DNA of 64,000 bases from an uncultured Rhodobacter sp. (lineage in GTDB: Bacteria; Pseudomonadota; Alphaproteobacteria; Rhodobacterales; Rhodobacteraceae), in NCBI GenBank assembly GCA_964600965.1, contig CAZRLO010000004.1, positions 1,798 through 65,797 of the forward strand. Direction: 5' to 3'. How positions within the stretch are numbered: position 1 is the stretch's first letter; every line of letters starts with the position of its first letter. The notes below the pieces were generated by a model that was not told the DNA's origin, did no database searches, and saw nothing but the letters and a program-made list of their open reading frames with translations. A program made the position numbers and the translations under genes. Shown here piece after piece: positions 5,151-50,819 of the stretch.

Positions 5151-5329
5151 TCCGCTTGCTAGAGCATCCGGGGGCCTGACCGCAACCAACGAGATCAGAC
5201 AACCCGCGCCGCCGGGCCGTGACGCGGGACGTGCCACCCGGCGTATGGTGGTTAATCGCTGTCGTTTGATCTGGAAGATTGGCGACCTTTTTTTGTTTTG
5301 GGACAATGTGTTGCGATGGTTTCGCTTGC

Positions 5330-5346
5330 GTGACTAAAATATTTTA
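5330..5346. promoter_or_regulatory. AT-rich palindromic motif GTGACTAAAATATTTTA, site 1 (left arm and core only)
   Basis: A 17-nt string identical to 34618-34634 and 38461-38477. Located in the divergent promoter region between the AMP-ligase operon (start 5150, minus) and the XRE-cupin regulator (start 5497, plus). Confidence 0.6.
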
Positions 5347-5496
5347 ATGCTTTTCGCCCGCCACTGCTTTCCAACCCGCATTTTCACAAGACCCGGGCCA
5401 AACGCCGCGCATCACCCTCTTGCAATCGGCGCCTCCGCCGGTTGCAACCTGCCGTCCGTGGCGGTAAGGGCGTTGGCACGAACCCAGCAGGTGCCG

Positions 5497-6242: not shown

Positions 6243-6396
6243 TTGAGGCAGGTTTCATACAGGCAAGAAACCTATCGAGCAGTGCAGTTGTTATACGAAA
6301 TCTGTACGGGTGCGCCAAGTTAAAATTTGAAAATTTTGTGGCAAGTCAGTAGGCTGGACCACGACCTGCCCCCATCATGACGGAAATGTTGCGCCG

Positions 6397-8696: not shown

Positions 8697-9329
8697 TCAT
8701 GCCCCGCCCGAAATTCCCGCCCTCAGTGGCCACAAAAGCCCGGCTGCGATCGTCCACATGGTCAGCCCGATCAACCCGTCGAAGATCCGCCACGCGCGCG
8801 CCGATTGCATGATCGGGGAAAGCAGCCGCGCGCCATAGCCCAGCGCGAAGAAAAACGTGAAGGACGCCGCCGCCGCCGCGACGCCAAAGACCAGTTTCTG
8901 ACCGCCTTCGGCAAATCCCGCCGAAACCGCGCCGATCAGGCCCAGCGTGTCCAGATAGACATGCGGGTTCAGCCATGTCAGCGCCAGCCCCGTCAGAATC
9001 ACCGGCCGCAGCCCGGTCGCGTTCGCCGTGGTTTGCCCGACGGCATTGCCCCGGATCGCCGCCTTGAACCGCAACCCTCCGTAAACGATCAGGAACCCGG
9101 CCCCGGCCAGCGCCATGAAGTGCGGAAATTGCGGGGAAAGCGTCACCAGCCAGCCAAACCCCAGCACACCCAGCGTGATCAGGGCCGCATCCGATACCGC
9201 GCAAAGCAGGCAAAGCACGAAAACATGCCGCCCCAACATCCCCTGGCGCAGCACAAAGGCGTTTTGCGCACCTATGGCCAGTATCAGCGAAAGGGCGGTG
9301 AAATACCCGGTCAGTGCCGCCGTGATCAT
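8697..9329 (-). CDS. LysE/ArgO-family amino-acid exporter
   Basis: 210-aa six-TM ORF. The N-terminus LSLILAIGAQNAFVLRQG is characteristic of LysE/ArgO. Confidence 0.85.
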   Translation of the reverse strand: MITAALTGYFTALSLILAIGAQNAFVLRQGMLGRHVFVLCLLCAVSDAALITLGVLGFGWLVTLSPQFPHFMALAGAGFLIVYGGLRFKAAIRGNAVGQTTANATGLRPVILTGLALTWLNPHVYLDTLGLIGAVSAGFAEGGQKLVFGVAAAAASFTFFFALGYGARLLSPIMQSARAWRIFDGLIGLTMWTIAAGLLWPLRAGISGGA

Positions 9330-34065: not shown

Positions 34066-34071
34066 GACCGG

Positions 34072-34449
34072 TTAACCGGCATCTTCTTTCGTCGCGTTTT
34101 TCAGCCAGCCCAGATGGGTGTGCCCAAAGCTGTCGGGATATTTGAGGCCATAGCCCAGCAAACGGTCGAACCCGACATGGGCGATTTGCAGAAAAGCCGC
34201 CGCCAGCAACCAGCCCGGCATTTCCGGACCCAACCATGACAGGGCAACCAGACCCACGCCCAGCGCATAGACATGGGCCAGATTATAGGCCACCGCCCCA
34301 AGCCGCGTGCCCAGCAGATATCCGACCATCGCCATATCCGGCCAGAAAAACAGCAGCAGCCACCACCAACTGGGCTCGGCCAGTACGAAAAGCGCGAAAA
34401 TCGGCACCAGAAACAATGTCAGATGTTCCGCGTTCAGCCAGATTTTCAT
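34072..34449 (-). CDS. DUF4260-family membrane protein
   Basis: 125-aa hydrophobic ORF (start ATG 34449, MKIWLNAEH). The C-terminal HVGFDRLLGYGLKYP is the pattern I associate with DUF4260. Confidence 0.65.
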   Translation of the reverse strand: MKIWLNAEHLTLFLVPIFALFVLAEPSWWWLLLFFWPDMAMVGYLLGTRLGAVAYNLAHVYALGVGLVALSWLGPEMPGWLLAAAFLQIAHVGFDRLLGYGLKYPDSFGHTHLGWLKNATKEDAG

Positions 34450-34617
34450 GGTTCCCCCTGGTTTGCCGACCGATATTTTCTGCCCCCGACTACATTCGCG
34501 GCTTTGCGCCCGCAAGCCCGGCACCAGCCGGAAGATGGCGGGAGTTTGGGGGGGATTGGCGGGTTGTGGCGGCTGATATTCATCGGCAATCCGCCGTTTA
34601 TCGGGGCGGCATGTTGC

Positions 34618-34639
34618 GTGACTAAAATATTTTAGTCAC
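34618..34639. promoter_or_regulatory. AT-rich perfect palindrome GTGACTAAAATATTTTAGTCAC, site 2 (complete 22-mer)
   Basis: A perfect 22-bp inverted repeat read directly from the sequence. It lies 169 nt upstream of the DUF4260 start and 333 nt upstream of the DUF2892 start. Confidence 0.65.
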
Positions 34640-34971
34640 TTTTGGACTCCGCGATTACCACTCTGTTTATGCAGGATAAAATCGGGATTTCATGACGACG
34701 TAGATGCCGAATATTCGCCGGCGGGACAGCCCTGATCGGTGCTCACCGGCGCTGCTTCGCAACATTTTTCGCGGCCCCACATGGTCGCGGAAACGATCCG
34801 GCGAAAATTCGCCGATTACCGGGGTTCAGCGTGACGATGGCGATGAAATTGGCCGCATTTGTCGCCCGACCATCAACAATCCCTCAAATTTCCGCAATTT
34901 GGCCACAAACCGCCGCGAGGTTGACCGCACCAAGTCCGATCAACGGACACGTAACCGTGAGGGGAACAGAG

Positions 34972-38154: not shown

Positions 38155-38208
38155 TCCGGCCGTTTCCCTGATTGTACTTCACCGCCGGTTACCGGCGGGT
38201 TAACGATG

Positions 38209-38223
38209 GAACAAAACGTGATC
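38209..38223 (-). promoter_or_regulatory. imperfect alpha-type LexA box upstream of uvrA
   Basis: The plus strand reads GAAC-aaaacgt-GATC. One mismatch to GAAC-N7-GAAC. It lies 55-69 nt upstream of the uvrA ATG. Confidence 0.3.
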
Positions 38224-38460
38224 ATTCACAAGTCCTAACCGGATAGGTGATCGGGGAATTGCTGTTTATCAAGGGAGCCGATCGAATTCAGCCCCAATAT
38301 TGGGTACGGCACCAGAATTCTTGCACGGCGAGGGTCGAGACGGTGGCACGAATTCCACGCCGGATGCGGCACGCGCGGGTCGTGAAATTCGTGGTGGTTA
38401 ATGGTTTAAGAAATTGATGTATCCTGATGATCGTCATCAATAAAAATGGCCGCCGTTAGA

Positions 38461-38479
38461 GTGACTAAAATATTTTAGT
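38461..38479. promoter_or_regulatory. AT-rich palindromic motif GTGACTAAAATATTTTAGT, site 3
   Basis: 19 nt identical to site 2. It lies 307 nt upstream of the uvrA start and 92 nt downstream of the SLT-gene stop. Confidence 0.6.
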
Positions 38480-38570
38480 GGATTTGTCGGACCCCCGAAT
38501 TTCGTCCGCGAAAAACATTCGTGCGAAACCCGCCGAAACCATCGTTGAAAATCGTCGGAACCCCCGGGCG

Positions 38571-39113
38571 TTATCGCCCGAAAATCGTCAGAACATAGGC
38601 CTGGGTCTCGGCAAAGGGTGGGACATCGTCATATTTTTCCACCGCTTCCGGCCCGGCGTTATACGCGGCGACGGCCAGTTTCCAGCTTCGGAAACGCAGG
38701 AACTGCTTTTTGAGGTAAAGCGCGCCGCCCTCCAGATTGGCCTTGGGATCGGTCGGGTCGACCCCCAGCCGTGCGGCGGTTTCGGGCATCAGTTGCGCCA
38801 GACCGATGGCCCCCTTGTGCGACACCGCCCGTGGGTTCCAGTTGCTTTCCGCCTGTACCAGCCGCACGAACAGATCACGCGGCACGCCGAACTTGGCGGC
38901 GGCCTTTTCAGCCATGGGCAGGTAGACTCCGCGATAGGCGCCGGCATAGCGCGGGATGTGCCCGTTTTTGGGCAGCAACCGCTTTGAGCCCTCGTACTGC
39001 TTGGCAAGGCGCCCGTCCAACAGCTTTAGCTGCGCCTTTGACAGCCCCGAATGCGCCGGCTGCGCCAGGCTCACGGCCAACCCGGCCAAAACTGGTATTG
39101 TCGAAAATCGCAT
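38571..39113 (-). CDS. lytic transglycosylase (SLT-domain) protein, secreted
   Basis: A signal peptide ([22 protein letters not shown]) is followed by SLT motifs: [25 protein letters not shown] and AYNAGP. Start ATG 39113. Confidence 0.8.
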
Positions 39114-39150
39114 CCCACCACCAAAAAGCTCGGCACCGATCATACCAGAC

Positions 39151-39159
39151 TTATCCACA
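39151..39159 (+). promoter_or_regulatory. single consensus DnaA box TTATCCACA
   Basis: A perfect 9-mer read directly from the SLT/ssb divergent region. It is an isolated site, so its function is not implied. Confidence 0.25.
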
Positions 39160-39265
39160 TTCGGGAGTCCCTGATTGTCTCTTGCGCGGAAATACACCTT
39201 TTCTTCATCTTTGCAGGGTGGTCTAACAATTGTGGTTAATTTTCGGATTCGGGCAGGAGGCCAGA

Positions 39266-48728: not shown

Positions 48729-50819
48729 TCAACCCACTGAAATCATTTGGATAGACTTTTCCTGCTCCATCAAGTGCAGCAAGACCTGCGCCGCTTGCCC
48801 GCGCGCCGATGTCAGGTCCGGGTCGGTTGCCAGCAGCAGGCGTGCGTCATCCTGCGCCAGTTTCATCAGATCGGCCTGAATCTCCAGATCGGCAATCCGG
48901 AATTTTGGCAGCCCCGATTGCGCCACCCCCAGCACATCCCCGGCACCGCGCAGCTTCAGGTCCTGTTCCGCCAGATAAAAACCGTCGTCGCTGTCGCGCA
49001 ACGCCATCAACCGCTGATGGGCGGCATTGCCCAAGGGCGGAGAATAGATCAGCAGACACGACGATTGCGCCGCCCCCCGCCCGACGCGGCCCCGCAACTG
49101 ATGCAATTGCGCCAGACCAAAATTTTCGGCCTGCTCGATCACCATGATCGACGCCGCGGGCACGTCGACGCCGACCTCGATCACGGTGGTTGCGACCAGA
49201 ACGCGAACTTGCCCGGCAATGAATGCCGCCATGGCCGCGTCCTTTTCGGCCGTTTGCATCTGCCCATGAACCAGACCGACGTTTTCCTCGCCCAGGGCAT
49301 GGCGCAGCGCCTGATACCGATCGGCGGCGGCGGTCCATTCGACCAGCTCGCTCTCCTGAACCAGGGGACACACCCAATAGACCTGCCGGTCCTCGGCCAG
49401 CGCCGATTTCAGGTGCGCCACGACTTCATCGATGCGCCCGGCCGGCATCACGACCGTGCGCACCGGTTTTCTGCCGGGCGGTTTTTCGTCAAGCACCGAG
49501 ACATCCATGTCGCCATATTGTGCCAACGCCAGCGAACGCGGAATCGGGGTTGCGGTCATGACCAGAACATCGACCCCCGCGCCCTTGGCCCCCAGATCCA
49601 TGCGCTGGCGCACCCCGAAACGGTGCTGTTCGTCGATCACGGCAAGGCGCAAATCATTGAATTTGATGTCTTTTTGAAAAACCGCGTGGGTGCCCAGCAG
49701 AACATCGGTTGCCCCGTTGGCCAGACGTTGCAGCTTGGCGACCCGGCTTTTGCCGGTGTCGCGTCCCGTCAGGATCTCCAGCGTCAGGCCGGCGATCTCT
49801 GCAAGCGGCAGCAGCGTTTCCAGATGCTGGCGCGCCAAGATCTCGGTCGGGGCCATCATGACGCCCTGCCCGCCCGCCTCGACCGCGATCAGCAGCGCCA
49901 GCCACGCGACCAGCGTCTTGCCCGAGCCGACATCGCCCTGAAGCAATCGGTTCATCCGATGTTTGCCACCCATGTCCGCCGCAATTTCCGCGATGGCGCG
50001 ACTCTGCGCCTTGGTCGCCTTGAACGGCAACGATTTCAACACCTTGTCTTGCAACTTGCCGGTGGATTGGTTGGCCCGCCCCGGCGCGCGCCGTTGCCGC
50101 GACCGGGCCAACGCCAGCGTTAACTGGTGCGCAAACAATTCATCATACGCCAGACGCTCACGCGGCGGGGCGGCGGGCAACAGATCGCCCGACGATTGCG
50201 GTGCGTGGGCCGTTTGCAGGGCGGCGCGCCATCCGGGCCATTGGCACCGCGACCGGATACCGGGTTCGATCCATTCGGCCAGATCGGGCAATCGTTCGAG
50301 AGCCGAGGCCAGCGCCCGCTGTAACCCCTTTTGCGTCAGCCCGGCGCACAGCGGATAGACGGGTTCATAGACCGGAATGGCGCCCGCCTCGTCGGCGCGT
50401 AGAATATGGTCGGGATGCACCATCTGCGCGACCCCGTCGAACAGTTCCACCTTGCCCGAAACGATGCGCCGCTGGCCGGCGGGCAGATTGCGCCGCAGCC
50501 ATTCGGCGCGGGCGTGAAAAAACACCAGTTGAAAACTGGTCGCCGCATCCCGCACGGTCACGCGATACGGGCGGCCCTTGACGGCGTTCGGATGGTGCGT
50601 GCCGACTTCGACCTCGACCGTGGTGACCACGGGGGCGGTGACCTCGCGGATCGAGTTTTTCGGGTTCCGGTCGATCCCCGCATAGGGCAGCGTCATCACC
50701 AGATCGCGCGGGCGCGCGATGTCCATGGTCGCGAAATGCCGGGCGTTACGCGCGCCGATCCCGGCAAGGCCGGTCATGTCGGCGAAAAGCCCAAACAGCG
50801 ATTCCGGTCGGGGGCTCAT
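48729..50819 (-). CDS. recG: ATP-dependent DNA helicase RecG
   Basis: 696 aa with an N-terminal wedge domain and SF2 helicase motifs (LLQGDVGSGKT, DEQHRFG, MTATPIPR, QLHQLRGRVGRG). Confidence 0.95.
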   Translation of the reverse strand: MSPRPESLFGLFADMTGLAGIGARNARHFATMDIARPRDLVMTLPYAGIDRNPKNSIREVTAPVVTTVEVEVGTHHPNAVKGRPYRVTVRDAATSFQLVFFHARAEWLRRNLPAGQRRIVSGKVELFDGVAQMVHPDHILRADEAGAIPVYEPVYPLCAGLTQKGLQRALASALERLPDLAEWIEPGIRSRCQWPGWRAALQTAHAPQSSGDLLPAAPPRERLAYDELFAHQLTLALARSRQRRAPGRANQSTGKLQDKVLKSLPFKATKAQSRAIAEIAADMGGKHRMNRLLQGDVGSGKTLVAWLALLIAVEAGGQGVMMAPTEILARQHLETLLPLAEIAGLTLEILTGRDTGKSRVAKLQRLANGATDVLLGTHAVFQKDIKFNDLRLAVIDEQHRFGVRQRMDLGAKGAGVDVLVMTATPIPRSLALAQYGDMDVSVLDEKPPGRKPVRTVVMPAGRIDEVVAHLKSALAEDRQVYWVCPLVQESELVEWTAAADRYQALRHALGEENVGLVHGQMQTAEKDAAMAAFIAGQVRVLVATTVIEVGVDVPAASIMVIEQAENFGLAQLHQLRGRVGRGAAQSSCLLIYSPPLGNAAHQRLMALRDSDDGFYLAEQDLKLRGAGDVLGVAQSGLPKFRIADLEIQADLMKLAQDDARLLLATDPDLTSARGQAAQVLLHLMEQEKSIQMISVG

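What the first reader, a model, noticed from the sequence alone, without database searches (positions are those of the whole stretch)
34618..34639. Identical AT-rich palindrome GTGACTAAAATATTTTA(GTCAC) in three separate intergenic regions: unassigned operator or structural site
The sites. The 17-mer GTGACTAAAATATTTTA occurs without a single mismatch at 5330-5346, 34618-34634 and 38461-38477. Site 2 is a perfect 22-bp palindrome. Site 3 extends the match to 19 nt, and site 1 keeps the left arm and core only.

Why it is not chance. In a visibly GC-rich sequence, a 17-mer with only 4 G/C is not expected to occur three times by chance. All three copies avoid coding sequence.

Position. Each site lies upstream of a minus-strand gene start.
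- Site 1 is 180 nt upstream of the AMP-ligase/DsbA/MFS operon.
- Site 2 is 169 nt upstream of the DUF4260 gene.
- Site 3 is 307 nt upstream of uvrA.
Sites 1 and 2 are also in divergent promoter regions (XRE-cupin regulator and DUF2892). Sites 2 and 3 bracket the DUF2892-uvrA segment.

Possible relatives. A looser relative (GTTAAAATTTGAAAATTTTGTGGC, 6319-6342) precedes the orphan SBP gene. A 6-3-6 inverted repeat, TGATGA-tcg-TCATCA (38425-38439), sits 21 nt from site 3.

No match to known operators. The motif does not match the operator classes I can recall with confidence for this group:
- LexA: GTTC-N7-GTTC
- CtrA: TTAA-N7-TTAA
- Fnr/Crp: TTGAT-N4-ATCAA
- Irr ICE: TTTAGAA-N3-TTCTAAA
- parS
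- dif

Open question. The invariance of the AT core, and not only the arms, is unusual for a dimeric-repressor site. It leaves open a nucleoid-protein or architectural site, a specialised promoter element, or a repeat-element end.
Basis: seen in the sequence. Interest (0 to 1): 0.6.

Follow-up and report, generated by a model that had tools for sequence, protein, structure and literature searches.

The report
Dispersed palindrome repeat with cognate binder
The three identical AT-rich palindromes are copies of a 31-member, species-specific intergenic repeat (a bend-site-like motif plus a 30-bp palindrome) that is most likely the docking site of a small orphan ArsR-type DNA-binding protein encoded elsewhere in the genome, rather than the operator of an ordinary regulon.

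Summary
In detail: the 17-mer is exact at 5330, 34618 and 38461, against 0.01 matches expected by chance.

**What it is**
- Genome-wide there are 31 copies, 8 of them perfect. All are intergenic, and there is no tail of decayed copies.
- The real unit is about 70 bp: a 30-bp palindrome, (TTGC/AAA)-GTGACTAAAATATTTTAGTCAC-(GCAA/TTT), with an IHF-consensus-like motif at a fixed distance on one side.
- The copies fall in convergent, co-directional and divergent spacers in proportion to spacer length. Their orientation is random with respect to genes and GC skew.
- The neighbouring genes are functionally unrelated, so this is not a classical regulon.

**The likely binding protein**
- One bare copy sits 25 nt upstream of an orphan 118-aa sensor-less ArsR/NolR-fold gene (contig C95, outside the window).
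- The closest homologue (40% identity) is in a sister species. It carries the co-varied palindrome CCACTAAACCGGTTTAGTAG upstream of its own gene.
- That species holds at least 5 further dispersed copies with the same flanking motif, at non-orthologous places.

**Reading and limits**
- I read this as a dispersed repeat paired with a dedicated winged-helix binder.
- How the copies spread and what they do is unknown.
- This scan has flagged analogous ArsR-plus-palindrome pairs in other phyla (unchecked notes). I found no published description.

The parts
5326..5355 (.). Copy 1 of the 30-bp palindrome. The flank is TTGC and the 22-mer is GTGACTAAAATATTTTAATGCT. The distal half is degenerate (4 mismatches).
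   Evidence: The same 4-mismatch variant, AATGCT, recurs at G000 C125:4811, which indicates that the copies descend from one another.
5288..5325 (+). One-sided flanking motif of copy 1: an A/T-rich tract plus the IHF-like core GGACAATGTGTTG at 5301-5313.
   Evidence: Oriented position-weight analysis of all 31 copies. The core has 3 mismatches to WATCAANNNNTTR at the fixed offset -29.
34614..34643 (.). Copy 2: a perfect 22-bp palindrome, GTGACTAAAATATTTTAGTCAC, with flanks TTGC and TTTT.
   Evidence: As single-stranded DNA the 30-mer would fold at -13 kcal/mol.
34644..34683 (-). Flanking motif of copy 2, read on the minus strand. It holds the A/T-rich ATTTTATC tract and the core AAACAGAGTGGTA (34656-34668).
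   Evidence: This copy points the opposite way to copies 1 and 3.
38457..38486 (.). Copy 3: GTGACTAAAATATTTTAGTGGA, with 3 mismatches, all in the distal half.
   Evidence: It lies 88 nt beyond the stop of the SLT-domain gene (38571-39197, minus strand; Pfam) and 306 nt upstream of uvrA.
38419..38456 (+). Flanking motif of copy 3. It contains TGATGAtcgTCATCA (38425-38439) and an ATCAA-type core (38435-38447), shifted by 3 nt relative to the family register.

Best explanation
**The element.** The palindrome is the core of a composite repeat of about 70 bp that has been copied to about 31 non-coding places in this Rhodobacteraceae genome. Each dispersed copy has two parts:
- an A/T-rich tract plus a WATCAANNNNTTR-like motif, which is probably a binding and bending site for integration host factor;
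- about 13 nt further on, a 30-bp inverted repeat.

**The inferred binder.** The inverted repeat is inferred to be the high-affinity site of a dimer of a small (118 aa), sensor-less ArsR/SmtB-fold winged-helix protein whose closest solved structure is NolR. The protein is encoded at G000 C95:3513-3869. A bare copy of the palindrome sits 25 nt before its start codon, which predicts autorepression.

**How it behaves.** The dispersed copies are not arranged as a regulon. They sit wherever non-coding DNA tolerates them, in either orientation. They would affect transcription only where they happen to overlap a promoter, for example between the AMP-ligase operon and the XRE-cupin gene, or upstream of the DUF4260 gene. 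Collectively they would load or titrate the protein at about 30 fixed, bent sites.

**Shown versus inferred.**
- Shown: the copy number, the architecture, the placement, the lineage restriction, the gene-to-site linkage in two species, and the fold of the protein.
- Inferred: actual binding by the protein and by IHF, the copying mechanism (no transposase was found), and any cellular role.
For: **A real, sharply bounded family**
- There are 31 copies with at most 4 mismatches, 8 of them perfect.
- An HMM gives 31 hits at 25 bits or more. The next hit is a single half-site remnant at 10.7 bits, so there is no decay tail.

**Insertion-like placement**
- No copy lies in a gene, although my gene calls make 86% of the genome coding.
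- The copies split 13 co-directional, 10 convergent and 7 divergent. The intergenic length shares are 51%, 23% and 26%.
- Orientation is random relative to genes (16 and 12 of 31 for the two possible promoter directions) and relative to GC skew.
- The neighbouring genes are unrelated in function.
- G000 spacers that hold a copy are 146 to about 1050 nt longer than in relatives.

**Composite, polar unit**
- The one-sided motif has 2 or fewer mismatches to the IHF consensus at a fixed offset in 13 of 31 copies. The background rate is 0.0017 per position.
- The half of the palindrome next to the motif is four times better conserved than the distal half (8 versus 34 mismatches, p = 7e-5).
- IHF alpha and beta homologues are present in the genome.

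**Descent by copying**
- Identical multi-substitution variants are shared between copies.

**DNA-level rather than RNA-level signal**
- The outer flanks, TTGC/AAA and GCAA/TTT, combine freely without covariation.

**Link to the protein**
- Copy C95:3466 lies 25 nt from the ATG of a gene that hits Pfam HTH_5 at 26.1 bits (cut-off 22).
- An AlphaFold model (pLDDT 84.8) matches NolR, CzrA, SmtB and ArsR.
- The protein has no orthologue in the 18 other species of the genus. It has only 96 distant relatives among 1.84 billion representative proteins.

**Replication in a sister species**
- The nearest homologue (40% identity, genome G013) has the perfect palindrome CCACTAAACCGGTTTAGTAG 37-57 nt before its ATG. 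The ACTAAA-N4-TTTAGT half-sites and spacing are the same as here.
- A 35%-identical homologue in G016 has CGACTAGAAGAGTAGTCG upstream.
- ACTA-N4-12-TAGT occurs only 22 times in G000, and 16 of those are these sites. The chance of finding one in 300 nt is therefore about 6e-4.
- In 1.1 Mb of G013 there are 5 further dispersed copies of its own variant. All five carry the same one-sided ACAAC-N4-TTR motif 23-24 nt away.
- The G013 copies lie at positions not orthologous to the G000 copies.

**Wider family**
- Other family members also carry strong palindromes upstream of their own genes.
Against: - No binding data exist. The gene-to-site link rests on position in two or three genomes.
- The protein has no catalytic domain, and no transposase, RAYT, terminal inverted repeats or target-site duplications were found. 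The means of spread is therefore unexplained.
- The 'IHF site' is a consensus resemblance. It can also be read as an UP-element plus a -35 TTG placed 18 nt from a TAAAAT -10 inside the palindrome. In that reading, 16 of 31 copies do have a gene downstream.
- Four of those downstream genes are regulators. That is more than expected and hints at some regulatory use.
- The relatives are only about 80% identical, so insertion boundaries could not be defined.
- The genome is a 195-contig MAG (94.5% complete), so the map positions around the chromosome are unknown.
Confidence: 0.55

Rival explanations
1. Classical global regulon. The palindrome is the operator of a repressor (the C95 ArsR-like protein or another). 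It overlaps the -10/+1 region of about 30 promoters built as UP-like tract, -35 TTGnnn, 18 nt, then TAAAAT. The convergent-region copies would drive unannotated small RNAs or peptides.
For: - A TTG sits 18 nt upstream of the TAAAAT inside the palindrome, and A/T tracts lie at about -41/-45 and -53/-58.
- 16 of 31 copies have a gene downstream at 25-396 nt. These include four regulators: ArsR-like, XRE-cupin, PhaR and Ada.
- Convergent spacers that hold a copy are unusually long (266-767 nt), which leaves room for unannotated transcripts.
Against: - 15 of 31 copies have no gene in that direction, and 10 lie between two gene 3' ends.
- The placement equals the length shares of the spacer classes.
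- The neighbouring genes are functionally incoherent.
- There is no conservation at orthologous promoters.
- The sister-species variant keeps the flanking motif, but its palindrome (CTAAACCGGTTTAG) has no -10-like hexamer.
- Thirty near-perfect 30-bp sites arising by point mutation in a single species is implausible.
Confidence: 0.17
2. Purely selfish miniature repeat (MITE-, REP- or Correia-like) with no dedicated protein. The copy in front of the ArsR-like gene would be one more random insertion.
For: The family is lineage-specific, multi-copy, intergenic only, randomly oriented and contains shared derived variants. It also carries an IHF-like site, as do Correia elements and BIME-1 (PMC2649163, PMC3184786).
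Against: - The chance that a random copy lands within 60 nt upstream of this one gene is about 0.005 (31 copies x 60 nt over about 411 kb of non-coding DNA).
- The same arrangement recurs with a co-varied palindrome at the homologous gene of a second species.
- There are no terminal inverted repeats, target-site duplications or RAYT.
- The palindrome is far better conserved than the rest of the unit, and there are no decayed copies. That argues for selection on the palindrome at each copy.
Confidence: 0.12
3. Chromosome-organising sites in the manner of matS/MatP, SBS/SlmA or NBS/Noc. A sequence-specific protein would mark about 30 places to structure the nucleoid or position division.
For: There are tens of dispersed, non-promoter palindromes with one candidate binder and an adjacent bend site. 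The GTGAC...GTCAC arms recall matS (from memory). Copy spacing is compatible with a uniform scatter (my estimate from contig positions).
Against: - Such sites normally also occur inside genes. Here none of 31 does.
- The system is confined to one or two species of the genus, which is odd for a core cell-cycle function.
- There is no polarity with GC skew.
- Regional clustering cannot be tested on a draft assembly.
Confidence: 0.08
4. Core sites of a site-specific (tyrosine) recombinase with an IHF accessory site (12-6-12 geometry, as in dif, lox or att cores), marking the joints of inserted gene cassettes.
For: - The 30-bp unit can be parsed as TTGCGTGACTAA-AATATT-TTAGTCACGCAA.
- An IHF-like site about 20 bp from a core is typical of att sites (established knowledge of lambda attP).
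- Several copies sit at lineage-specific insertions or rearrangement joints: the DUF4260 gene, the C52 183-aa ORF and the C95 locus.
Against: - Copies are single rather than paired around cassettes.
- Some insertions contain no gene (site 1 +230-260 nt, C13 +146 nt).
- No recombinase is linked to any copy examined.
- A fully symmetric spacer would give no directionality.
Confidence: 0.05
5. Bidirectional transcription terminator or RNA hairpin element.
For: A 13-bp stem is possible (-10 to -13 kcal/mol as single-stranded DNA). About a third of the copies have AAA...TTT flanks, and many copies lie at gene 3' ends.
Against: - The stem is A/T-rich.
- No terminator-like site was called at site 2.
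- Most copies lack a U-tract.
- The outer flanks mix without covariation.
- Seven copies are in divergent promoter regions.
Confidence: 0.03

Closest known systems
ArsR/SmtB-family autorepressors with inverted-repeat operators, especially the non-metal regulator NolR of Sinorhizobium
   Same: - The candidate binder has the HTH_5 signature and the alpha-alpha-alpha-alphaR-beta-beta winged-helix fold. NolR (4omz) is the top structural match.
- An A/T-rich inverted repeat lies just upstream of its own gene.
- Relatives carry the same arrangement.
   Different: - There are no metal or thiol ligands: the protein has zero cysteines, and the C-terminal alpha5 helix is replaced by a proline-rich tail.
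- It has about 30 extra near-perfect sites that ignore promoters, each coupled to an IHF-like motif.
- The protein is an orphan with under 100 distant relatives in 1.84 billion representatives.
- The NolR operator, (A/T)TTAG-N9-A(T/A) as I recall it, has the half-sites in the opposite arrangement.
Correia repeat-enclosed elements (CREE) of Neisseria
   Same: Both are small, lineage-specific, multi-copy intergenic elements that carry an IHF site and -10/-35-like sequences, and can alter the expression of whatever gene they land next to (PMC2649163, PMC3184786).
   Different: - CREE are 100-155 bp with 26-bp terminal inverted repeats and TA duplications, and occur in hundreds of copies.
- Here there is a single central palindrome beside the IHF-like motif, no terminal repeats or duplications, only 31 copies, and a candidate dedicated binding protein.
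E. coli BIME-1 / RIP (RIB) elements
   Same: Both are dispersed extragenic palindromes combined with an IHF site, and both are frequent at gene 3' ends (PMC3184786).
   Different: - In RIP the IHF site lies between two inverted G+C-rich REPs. Here it lies to one side of an A/T-cored palindrome.
- REPs are mobilised by RAYT transposases, and none is found here.
REP/REPIN populations with their single-copy RAYT gene
   Same: Both pair a species-specific repeat population with one dedicated gene that itself carries the repeat next to it. In both, protein and repeat co-vary between species.
   Different: The partner here is a 118-aa DNA binder with no catalytic domain, not a Y1 transposase. PF01797 is absent. 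Copy number is ten times lower.
Iron-Rhodo-box (IscR) of Rhodobacteraceae
   Same: Both are palindromic sites in the same bacterial family, with TGA...TCA-type arms.
   Different: The Iron-Rhodo-box is 19 bp, conserved across the family and sits upstream of iron-uptake and iron-storage genes (PMC1698941, PMC4618611). The present site is 22-30 bp, species-specific and unrelated to iron genes.

Membership tests
ArsR/SmtB winged-helix family (candidate binder, G000 C95:3513-3869) | HTH_5 / ArsR-type sequence signature above the curated cut-off | tested here: met
   Pfam PF01022 scores 26.1 bits against a cut-off of 22. The NCBIfam HTH_metalloreg model scores 42.7 bits, below its cut-off of 55.
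ArsR/SmtB winged-helix family (candidate binder, G000 C95:3513-3869) | Winged-helix fold matching solved family members | tested here: met
   The AlphaFold model has pLDDT 84.8. The top 40 Foldseek hits are all ArsR/SmtB members (NolR, CzrA, SmtB, SrnR, ArsR, HlyU, SqrR), with probability 1.0 and target-normalised TM-scores of 0.6-0.8.
ArsR/SmtB winged-helix family (candidate binder, G000 C95:3513-3869) | Metal or thiol sensing ligands (alpha3N CXC, alpha5 His/Asp/Glu) | tested here: not met
   The sequence has no cysteine. After the wing there is only a short helix, then a disordered proline-rich tail. The protein is a sensor-less member.
ArsR/SmtB winged-helix family (candidate binder, G000 C95:3513-3869) | Inverted-repeat operator at its own promoter | tested here: met
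   The palindrome, with 1 mismatch, ends 25 nt before the ATG. Homologues in G013 and G016 and in other genomes also have palindromes upstream. Binding itself is untested.
Transcription-factor regulon (operator sites) | Sites placed at promoters of the regulated genes | tested here: not met
   10 of 30 copies lie between convergent genes. The class distribution equals the intergenic length shares.
Transcription-factor regulon (operator sites) | Sites conserved upstream of orthologous genes in relatives, and functional coherence of the targets | tested here: not met
   There are no matches in 18 congeneric species. The G013 copies are at non-orthologous places. The neighbouring genes are unrelated in function.
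REP/REPIN-RAYT | RAYT (Y1 transposase, PF01797) gene present and flanked by the repeat | tested here: not met
   No PF01797 match in the 94.5%-complete genome. The control genomes did match.
MITE (e.g. Correia element) | Terminal inverted repeats and target-site duplication | tested here: not met
   The ends of the unit are not inverted repeats of each other. The mean longest flanking direct repeat is 3.5 nt, against 4.0 in controls. Isolated half-sites that could be IS ends are absent, with one remnant.
MITE (e.g. Correia element) | Short, multi-copy, non-coding, lineage-specific, with copies descending from one another | tested here: met
   The unit is about 70 bp, with 31 copies in this species only. 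Derived variants are shared between copies.
IHF binding site | WATCAANNNNTTR core with an upstream A/T tract, and IHF encoded in the genome | tested here: met
   13 of 31 copies have 2 or fewer mismatches at a fixed offset, against a background of 0.0017 per position. The same motif flanks 5 of 5 dispersed G013 copies. IHF alpha and beta homologues are present. This is a consensus match only.
IHF binding site | Demonstrated IHF binding and bending | not testable with these tools
   Needs EMSA or footprinting.
Iron-Rhodo-box / IscR | 19-bp palindrome upstream of iron uptake and storage genes, conserved across Rhodobacteraceae | tested here: not met
   The definition comes from PMC1698941 and PMC4618611. 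The present site differs in length, gene context and phyletic range.
Intrinsic terminator | G+C-rich stem followed by a U-tract, with stem covariation | tested here: not met
   No terminator-like site was called at site 2. The stem is A/T-rich and the flanks mix without covariation.
matS/SBS/NBS-type chromosome-organising sites | Regional distribution on the chromosome, with sites also inside genes | tested here: inconclusive
   No copy lies in a gene and there is no GC-skew polarity. Map positions are unknown because the assembly has 195 contigs.

The most novel reading that the evidence does not exclude
A previously undescribed kind of genome component: a dispersed non-coding repeat that exists as a co-evolving pair with a dedicated, sensor-less winged-helix protein and no transposase. 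The protein, together with IHF, would assemble at about 30 fixed bent sites. It could act as a chromosomal docking or titration platform, or as the recognition factor of a transposase-independent copying process. The pair has diversified independently in sister species, which links it to the ArsR-plus-palindrome pairs that this scan has flagged in unrelated phyla.
Probability: 0.3. Interest if true: 0.8.

Novelty: new variant of a known kind. Interest (0 to 1): 0.62.

Why it matters
If the inferred pairing is real, it shows that a small bacterial DNA-binding protein and a family of dispersed non-coding repeats can evolve as a matched set. The protein and its roughly 30 sites change specificity together between sister species.

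Two things would follow:
- It would add a second type of 'repeat plus dedicated gene' system beside REP/RAYT, this one without a catalytic partner. That raises a tractable question: what copies the sites, and what the cell or the element gains.
- It warns annotators that identical palindromes in several promoter regions need not define a regulon.

For the three genes next to the window's copies the practical consequence is modest. The copies are lineage-specific insertions that may perturb the promoters of the AMP-ligase operon and XRE-cupin gene and of the DUF4260 gene. uvrA keeps its conserved LexA-type box far from copy 3.

Tried and rejected
**Hypotheses tested and rejected**
- tRNA/rRNA promoter idea. 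Only 3 copies lie within 1.5 kb of a tRNA.
- Known RNA families. Rfam gives no hit in the window.
- Wider distribution. The exact 22-mer is absent from 185k species genomes and from viral contigs. The relaxed 20-mer finds only single chance hits in A/T-rich genomes. The G+C-rich metagenome hits are the same organism at 99.8-99.9% identity.
- IS ends. There are no isolated half-sites except one remnant at C148:677.
- RAYT. Absent.
- Replication polarity. None.
- Target-site duplications. None.
- XRE-cupin as the binder. Rejected because it is conserved in relatives that lack the site.
- Iron-Rhodo-box/IscR. Rejected on length, context and range.
- Outward promoter in the flanking motif. It is seen at site 2 (TTACCA-16-TAAAAT) but is not a family feature.

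**Analyses that gave nothing or had too little power**
- Aligning G000 spacers with those of relatives to find insertion boundaries. The sequences are too diverged, at about 80% identity in genes.
- Looking for extra copies of the homologues' palindromes in their 20-kb loci. None were found, but the power is low.
- Literature searches for the sequence and for ArsR-linked repeats. Nothing relevant came up.

I therefore could not count the G013-type palindrome across the genus, and sampled 1.1 Mb of G013 by region fetches instead.
Full report
**1. The observation**

The 17-mer GTGACTAAAATATTTTA is present without mismatch at 5330, 34618 (both strands, so a perfect 22-bp palindrome) and 38461. 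Dinucleotide-preserving shuffles predict 0.01 matches (sequences). The window is contig C4:1798-65797 of a 3.02-Mb, 195-contig, 61% G+C assembly.

**2. Genome-wide picture**

- Allowing up to 5 mismatches to the 22-mer gives 31 sites on 27 contigs, none with more than 4. By mismatch count they split 8, 12, 5, 4 and 2 for 0 to 4 mismatches.
- The conserved block is really 30 bp. The left flank is TTGC or (T)AAA and the right flank is GCAA or TTT.
- The two flank flavours combine freely. There is therefore no stem covariation, and the signal is at the DNA level.
- An HMM built from the copies finds the same 31 at 25 bits or more. After that comes only one half-site remnant (C148:677, 10.7 bits) and then noise, so there is no tail of decayed copies.

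**3. A one-sided flanking motif makes the unit polar**

- Orienting the copies with an iterative weight matrix shows that nearly all have the same motif on one side only. It reads ...ATTT(T)ATC..TTGA..A(T/A)CAA-N4-TT(G/A)..., followed by 13 nt and then the palindrome.
- At the fixed offset -29, 13 of 31 copies have 2 or fewer mismatches to the IHF consensus WATCAANNNNTTR. The background rate is 0.0017 per position. The other side of the palindrome shows nothing comparable.
- IHF alpha, IHF beta and HU homologues are encoded in the genome.
- The half of the palindrome next to the motif is much better conserved than the distal half: 8 versus 34 mismatches, p = 7e-5. The orientation was assigned from the flank alone, so this test is independent.
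- The same stretch can also be read as a promoter: UP-like tracts, -35 TTG, an 18-nt spacer and -10 TAAAAT. I tested that reading against gene context in section 4.

**4. It is not arranged like a regulon**

- I built a dicodon-based gene caller and applied it to the contigs holding copies and then to the whole genome. No copy lies in a gene, although my calls make 86% of the genome coding.
- The 30 classifiable copies fall in 13 co-directional, 10 convergent and 7 divergent spacers. The shares of intergenic length are 51%, 23% and 26%.
- A gene lies downstream in the 'promoter' direction for 16 of 31 copies, and in the opposite direction for 12 of 31. Both are close to a coin toss.
- Orientation is unrelated to local GC skew.
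- The downstream genes include a luciferase-like monooxygenase, an alpha/beta hydrolase, PhaR, Ada, a sulfatase, MttB, a PLP enzyme, thymidine kinase, an SMR pump, DUF374, DUF1194, DUF4260 and an XRE-cupin regulator. They have no common theme.

**5. Lineage restriction and insertion**

- The motif is absent from 18 other species of the genus, even as TGACT-W10-AGTCA with one mismatch.
- It is also absent from 185,579 species genomes and from viral contigs. The only G+C-rich metagenome contigs carrying it are the same organism at 99.8-99.9% identity.
- The congeners are only about 80% identical in uvrA.
- Spacers with a copy are longer in G000 than in relatives:
  - site 1 is 230-260 nt longer than in five relatives;
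  - site 2 belongs to an insertion of about 780 nt that also brought the DUF4260 gene between mmsB and the YgaP-like gene;
  - C52 is about 1.05 kb longer;
  - C13 is 146 nt longer.
- Exact boundaries could not be aligned.
- Some copies share identical derived variants. AATGCT occurs at window site 1 and at C125, and TTTTAAT occurs in eight copies. This indicates descent by copying.
- I found no terminal inverted repeats, no target duplications, no IS-like half-sites and no RAYT.

**6. A candidate cognate protein**

- Copy C95:3466 has 1 mismatch and full TTGC/GCAA flanks, but lacks the flanking motif. It ends 25 nt before the ATG of a 118-aa gene with a GGGGGA ribosome-binding site.
- The product hits Pfam HTH_5 above the cut-off. 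PDB sequence hits are to ArsR, NolR, HlyU and SmtB.
- Modelled with a 42-sequence alignment, it gives a confident winged-helix model (pLDDT 84.8). The best structural matches are NolR, followed by CzrA, SmtB, SrnR, ArsR, HlyU and SqrR.
- It has no cysteine and no alpha5 sensing helix, so it is sensor-less.
- C95 carries the genome's only rpsO, so it is not a contaminant contig.
- The gene has no orthologue in the other 18 species; the best match is 40% identity. A word-indexed search of 5.8 billion proteins finds only the protein itself. An exhaustive search of 1.84 billion representatives finds 96 relatives, the best at 45% identity.
- These relatives form a small subfamily with the signature A..F.ALSHxRR...STLxHHL..M..aGL..RR..G.

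**7. Replication in a second species**

- The 40% homologue in genome G013 is a solitary, low-G+C gene between mfd and a glyoxalase gene.
- It has the perfect palindrome CCACTAAACCGGTTTAGTAG 37-57 nt before its ATG. The ACTAAA-N4-TTTAGT half-sites and spacing are the same as in G000, while the centre and outer arms are changed.
- A 35% homologue in G016 has CGACTAGAAGAGTAGTCG upstream.
- In G000, ACTA-N4-12-TAGT occurs only 22 times, and 16 of those are the present sites. A chance occurrence in 300 nt is therefore about 6e-4.
- The genome search had closed, so I fetched 1.1 Mb of G013 piecewise. This sample holds 5 further copies of aaaCCAYTAAACYRGTTTARTGGttt.
- All five are intergenic, one of them between convergent genes. 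All five carry the same one-sided A/T tract plus ACAA(C/A)-N4-TT motif 23-24 nt away.
- None lies at a position orthologous to a G000 copy. Neither genome holds the other's variant at 3 or fewer mismatches.
- The composite unit and the protein thus occur together in two species, with matched changes, and have dispersed independently.
- In both species the copy at the protein's own promoter lacks the flanking motif.
- More distant family members are likewise solitary genes preceded by strong palindromes: 24 bp, 26 bp and a perfect 60 bp.

**8. Interpretation**

The best-supported reading is a dispersed composite repeat whose palindrome is the binding site of this orphan ArsR/NolR-fold protein. 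An IHF-type bend site lies alongside, and the protein is autoregulated through a bare copy of the palindrome.

What is shown is the architecture, statistics, placement, phyletic pattern, gene-to-site linkage and fold. What is inferred is binding, bending, the copying mechanism and any cellular role, such as titration, docking or incidental promoter effects.

The rivals are a true regulon with hidden small transcripts, a purely selfish repeat, chromosome-organising sites, recombinase core sites and terminators. They are weighed in the Rival explanations section. The regulon reading is the strongest rival, because half of the copies do face a gene and four of those genes are regulators.

**9. 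Comparison with known systems**

The element works most like two known things:
- IHF-bearing miniature repeats, namely Correia elements and BIME-1/RIP (PMC2649163, PMC3184786);
- ArsR-family autoregulatory operators.

It fails the defining tests of MITEs (terminal repeats, target duplications) and of REP/RAYT (no Y1 transposase). It also fails those of the Iron-Rhodo-box (PMC1698941, PMC4618611) and of intrinsic terminators.

I found no publication describing a dispersed repeat paired with a sensor-less ArsR-type protein. Earlier AI notes of this scan describe similar pairs in Patescibacteria, PVC bacteria and others, and an IHF-core repeat in a Rhodobacteraceae-like genome. I reached the pairing before reading those notes and did not test them.

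**10. The three window copies**

- Site 1 is a degenerate copy inserted between the divergent AMP-ligase operon and XRE-cupin promoters.
- Site 2 is a perfect copy that arrived with, or next to, the DUF4260 gene.
- Site 3 lies just beyond the 3' end of the SLT gene. It is 230-250 nt upstream of uvrA's conserved LexA-type box at 38206-38232, which is 96-97% identical in three relatives. It is therefore unlikely to be needed for uvrA control.

**Limits**

- The genome is a draft MAG.
- No close relatives are available.

Noticed in passing
window 38206-38232: A 27-nt block upstream of uvrA containing GAAC-N7-GATC (LexA-type box) is 96-97% identical in three congeners whose genes are only about 80% identical. 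This is the conserved uvrA control element.
   Followed up: partly
window 34066-34860: In five relatives mmsB is followed within 36-160 nt by the YgaP-like (DUF2892) gene. G000 has about 780 extra nt carrying the DUF4260 gene (Pfam 1e-33) and palindrome copy 2, which is a lineage-specific insertion.
   Followed up: partly
G000 C2:~50115-50230, C18:~2085-2165, C3:~64990-65085, C88:~8710-8810, starts of C11 and C125: Arrays of 8-nt tandem units (GACGGCYN / GGCTGGAC, and CCGGTAAA / CCAGTAAA / CCGGTATT). Two of them lie directly upstream of paralogous ArsR-like genes, and one array causes a contig break. Similar 8-nt arrays precede family members elsewhere: GGTATTCC x14 in L205 and GCTAGCGG x5 in L137.
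   Followed up: no
L204 9876-9935 (GCA_038534155.1, upstream of P0122): A perfect 60-bp palindrome, AAGAAACATCAGGATTCCGGCATGCTAGAA|TTCTAGC..., lies 65-125 nt upstream of a family member. The same genome has a second paralogue (P0103) with its own 24-bp palindrome.
   Followed up: no
G000 C148:677-692: A single isolated half-site (GCGTGACTAAAATG) lies in the spacer upstream of an ABC-transporter binding-protein gene. It is the only decayed remnant of the family found.
   Followed up: partly
G013 sample (L164-L203): Other repeats in the sister species: a tandem CCAGAAGT-type array (14-mers seen 14-16 times), and a dispersed sequence of about 20 nt, GAGTATTTTTGCAAAGATGAA, in 6-8 copies per 0.77 Mb.
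   Followed up: no
G000 C95:2564-4284: The ArsR-like gene sits between a RidA-like gene and rpsO. In five relatives those neighbours are on different contigs or tens of kb apart, so the locus is a rearrangement joint.
   Followed up: partly
G000 C20:19522-19806 and C183:3179-3451: There are two IHF-beta-like genes in the assembly. One may reflect the 4% contamination or be a true paralogue.
   Followed up: no
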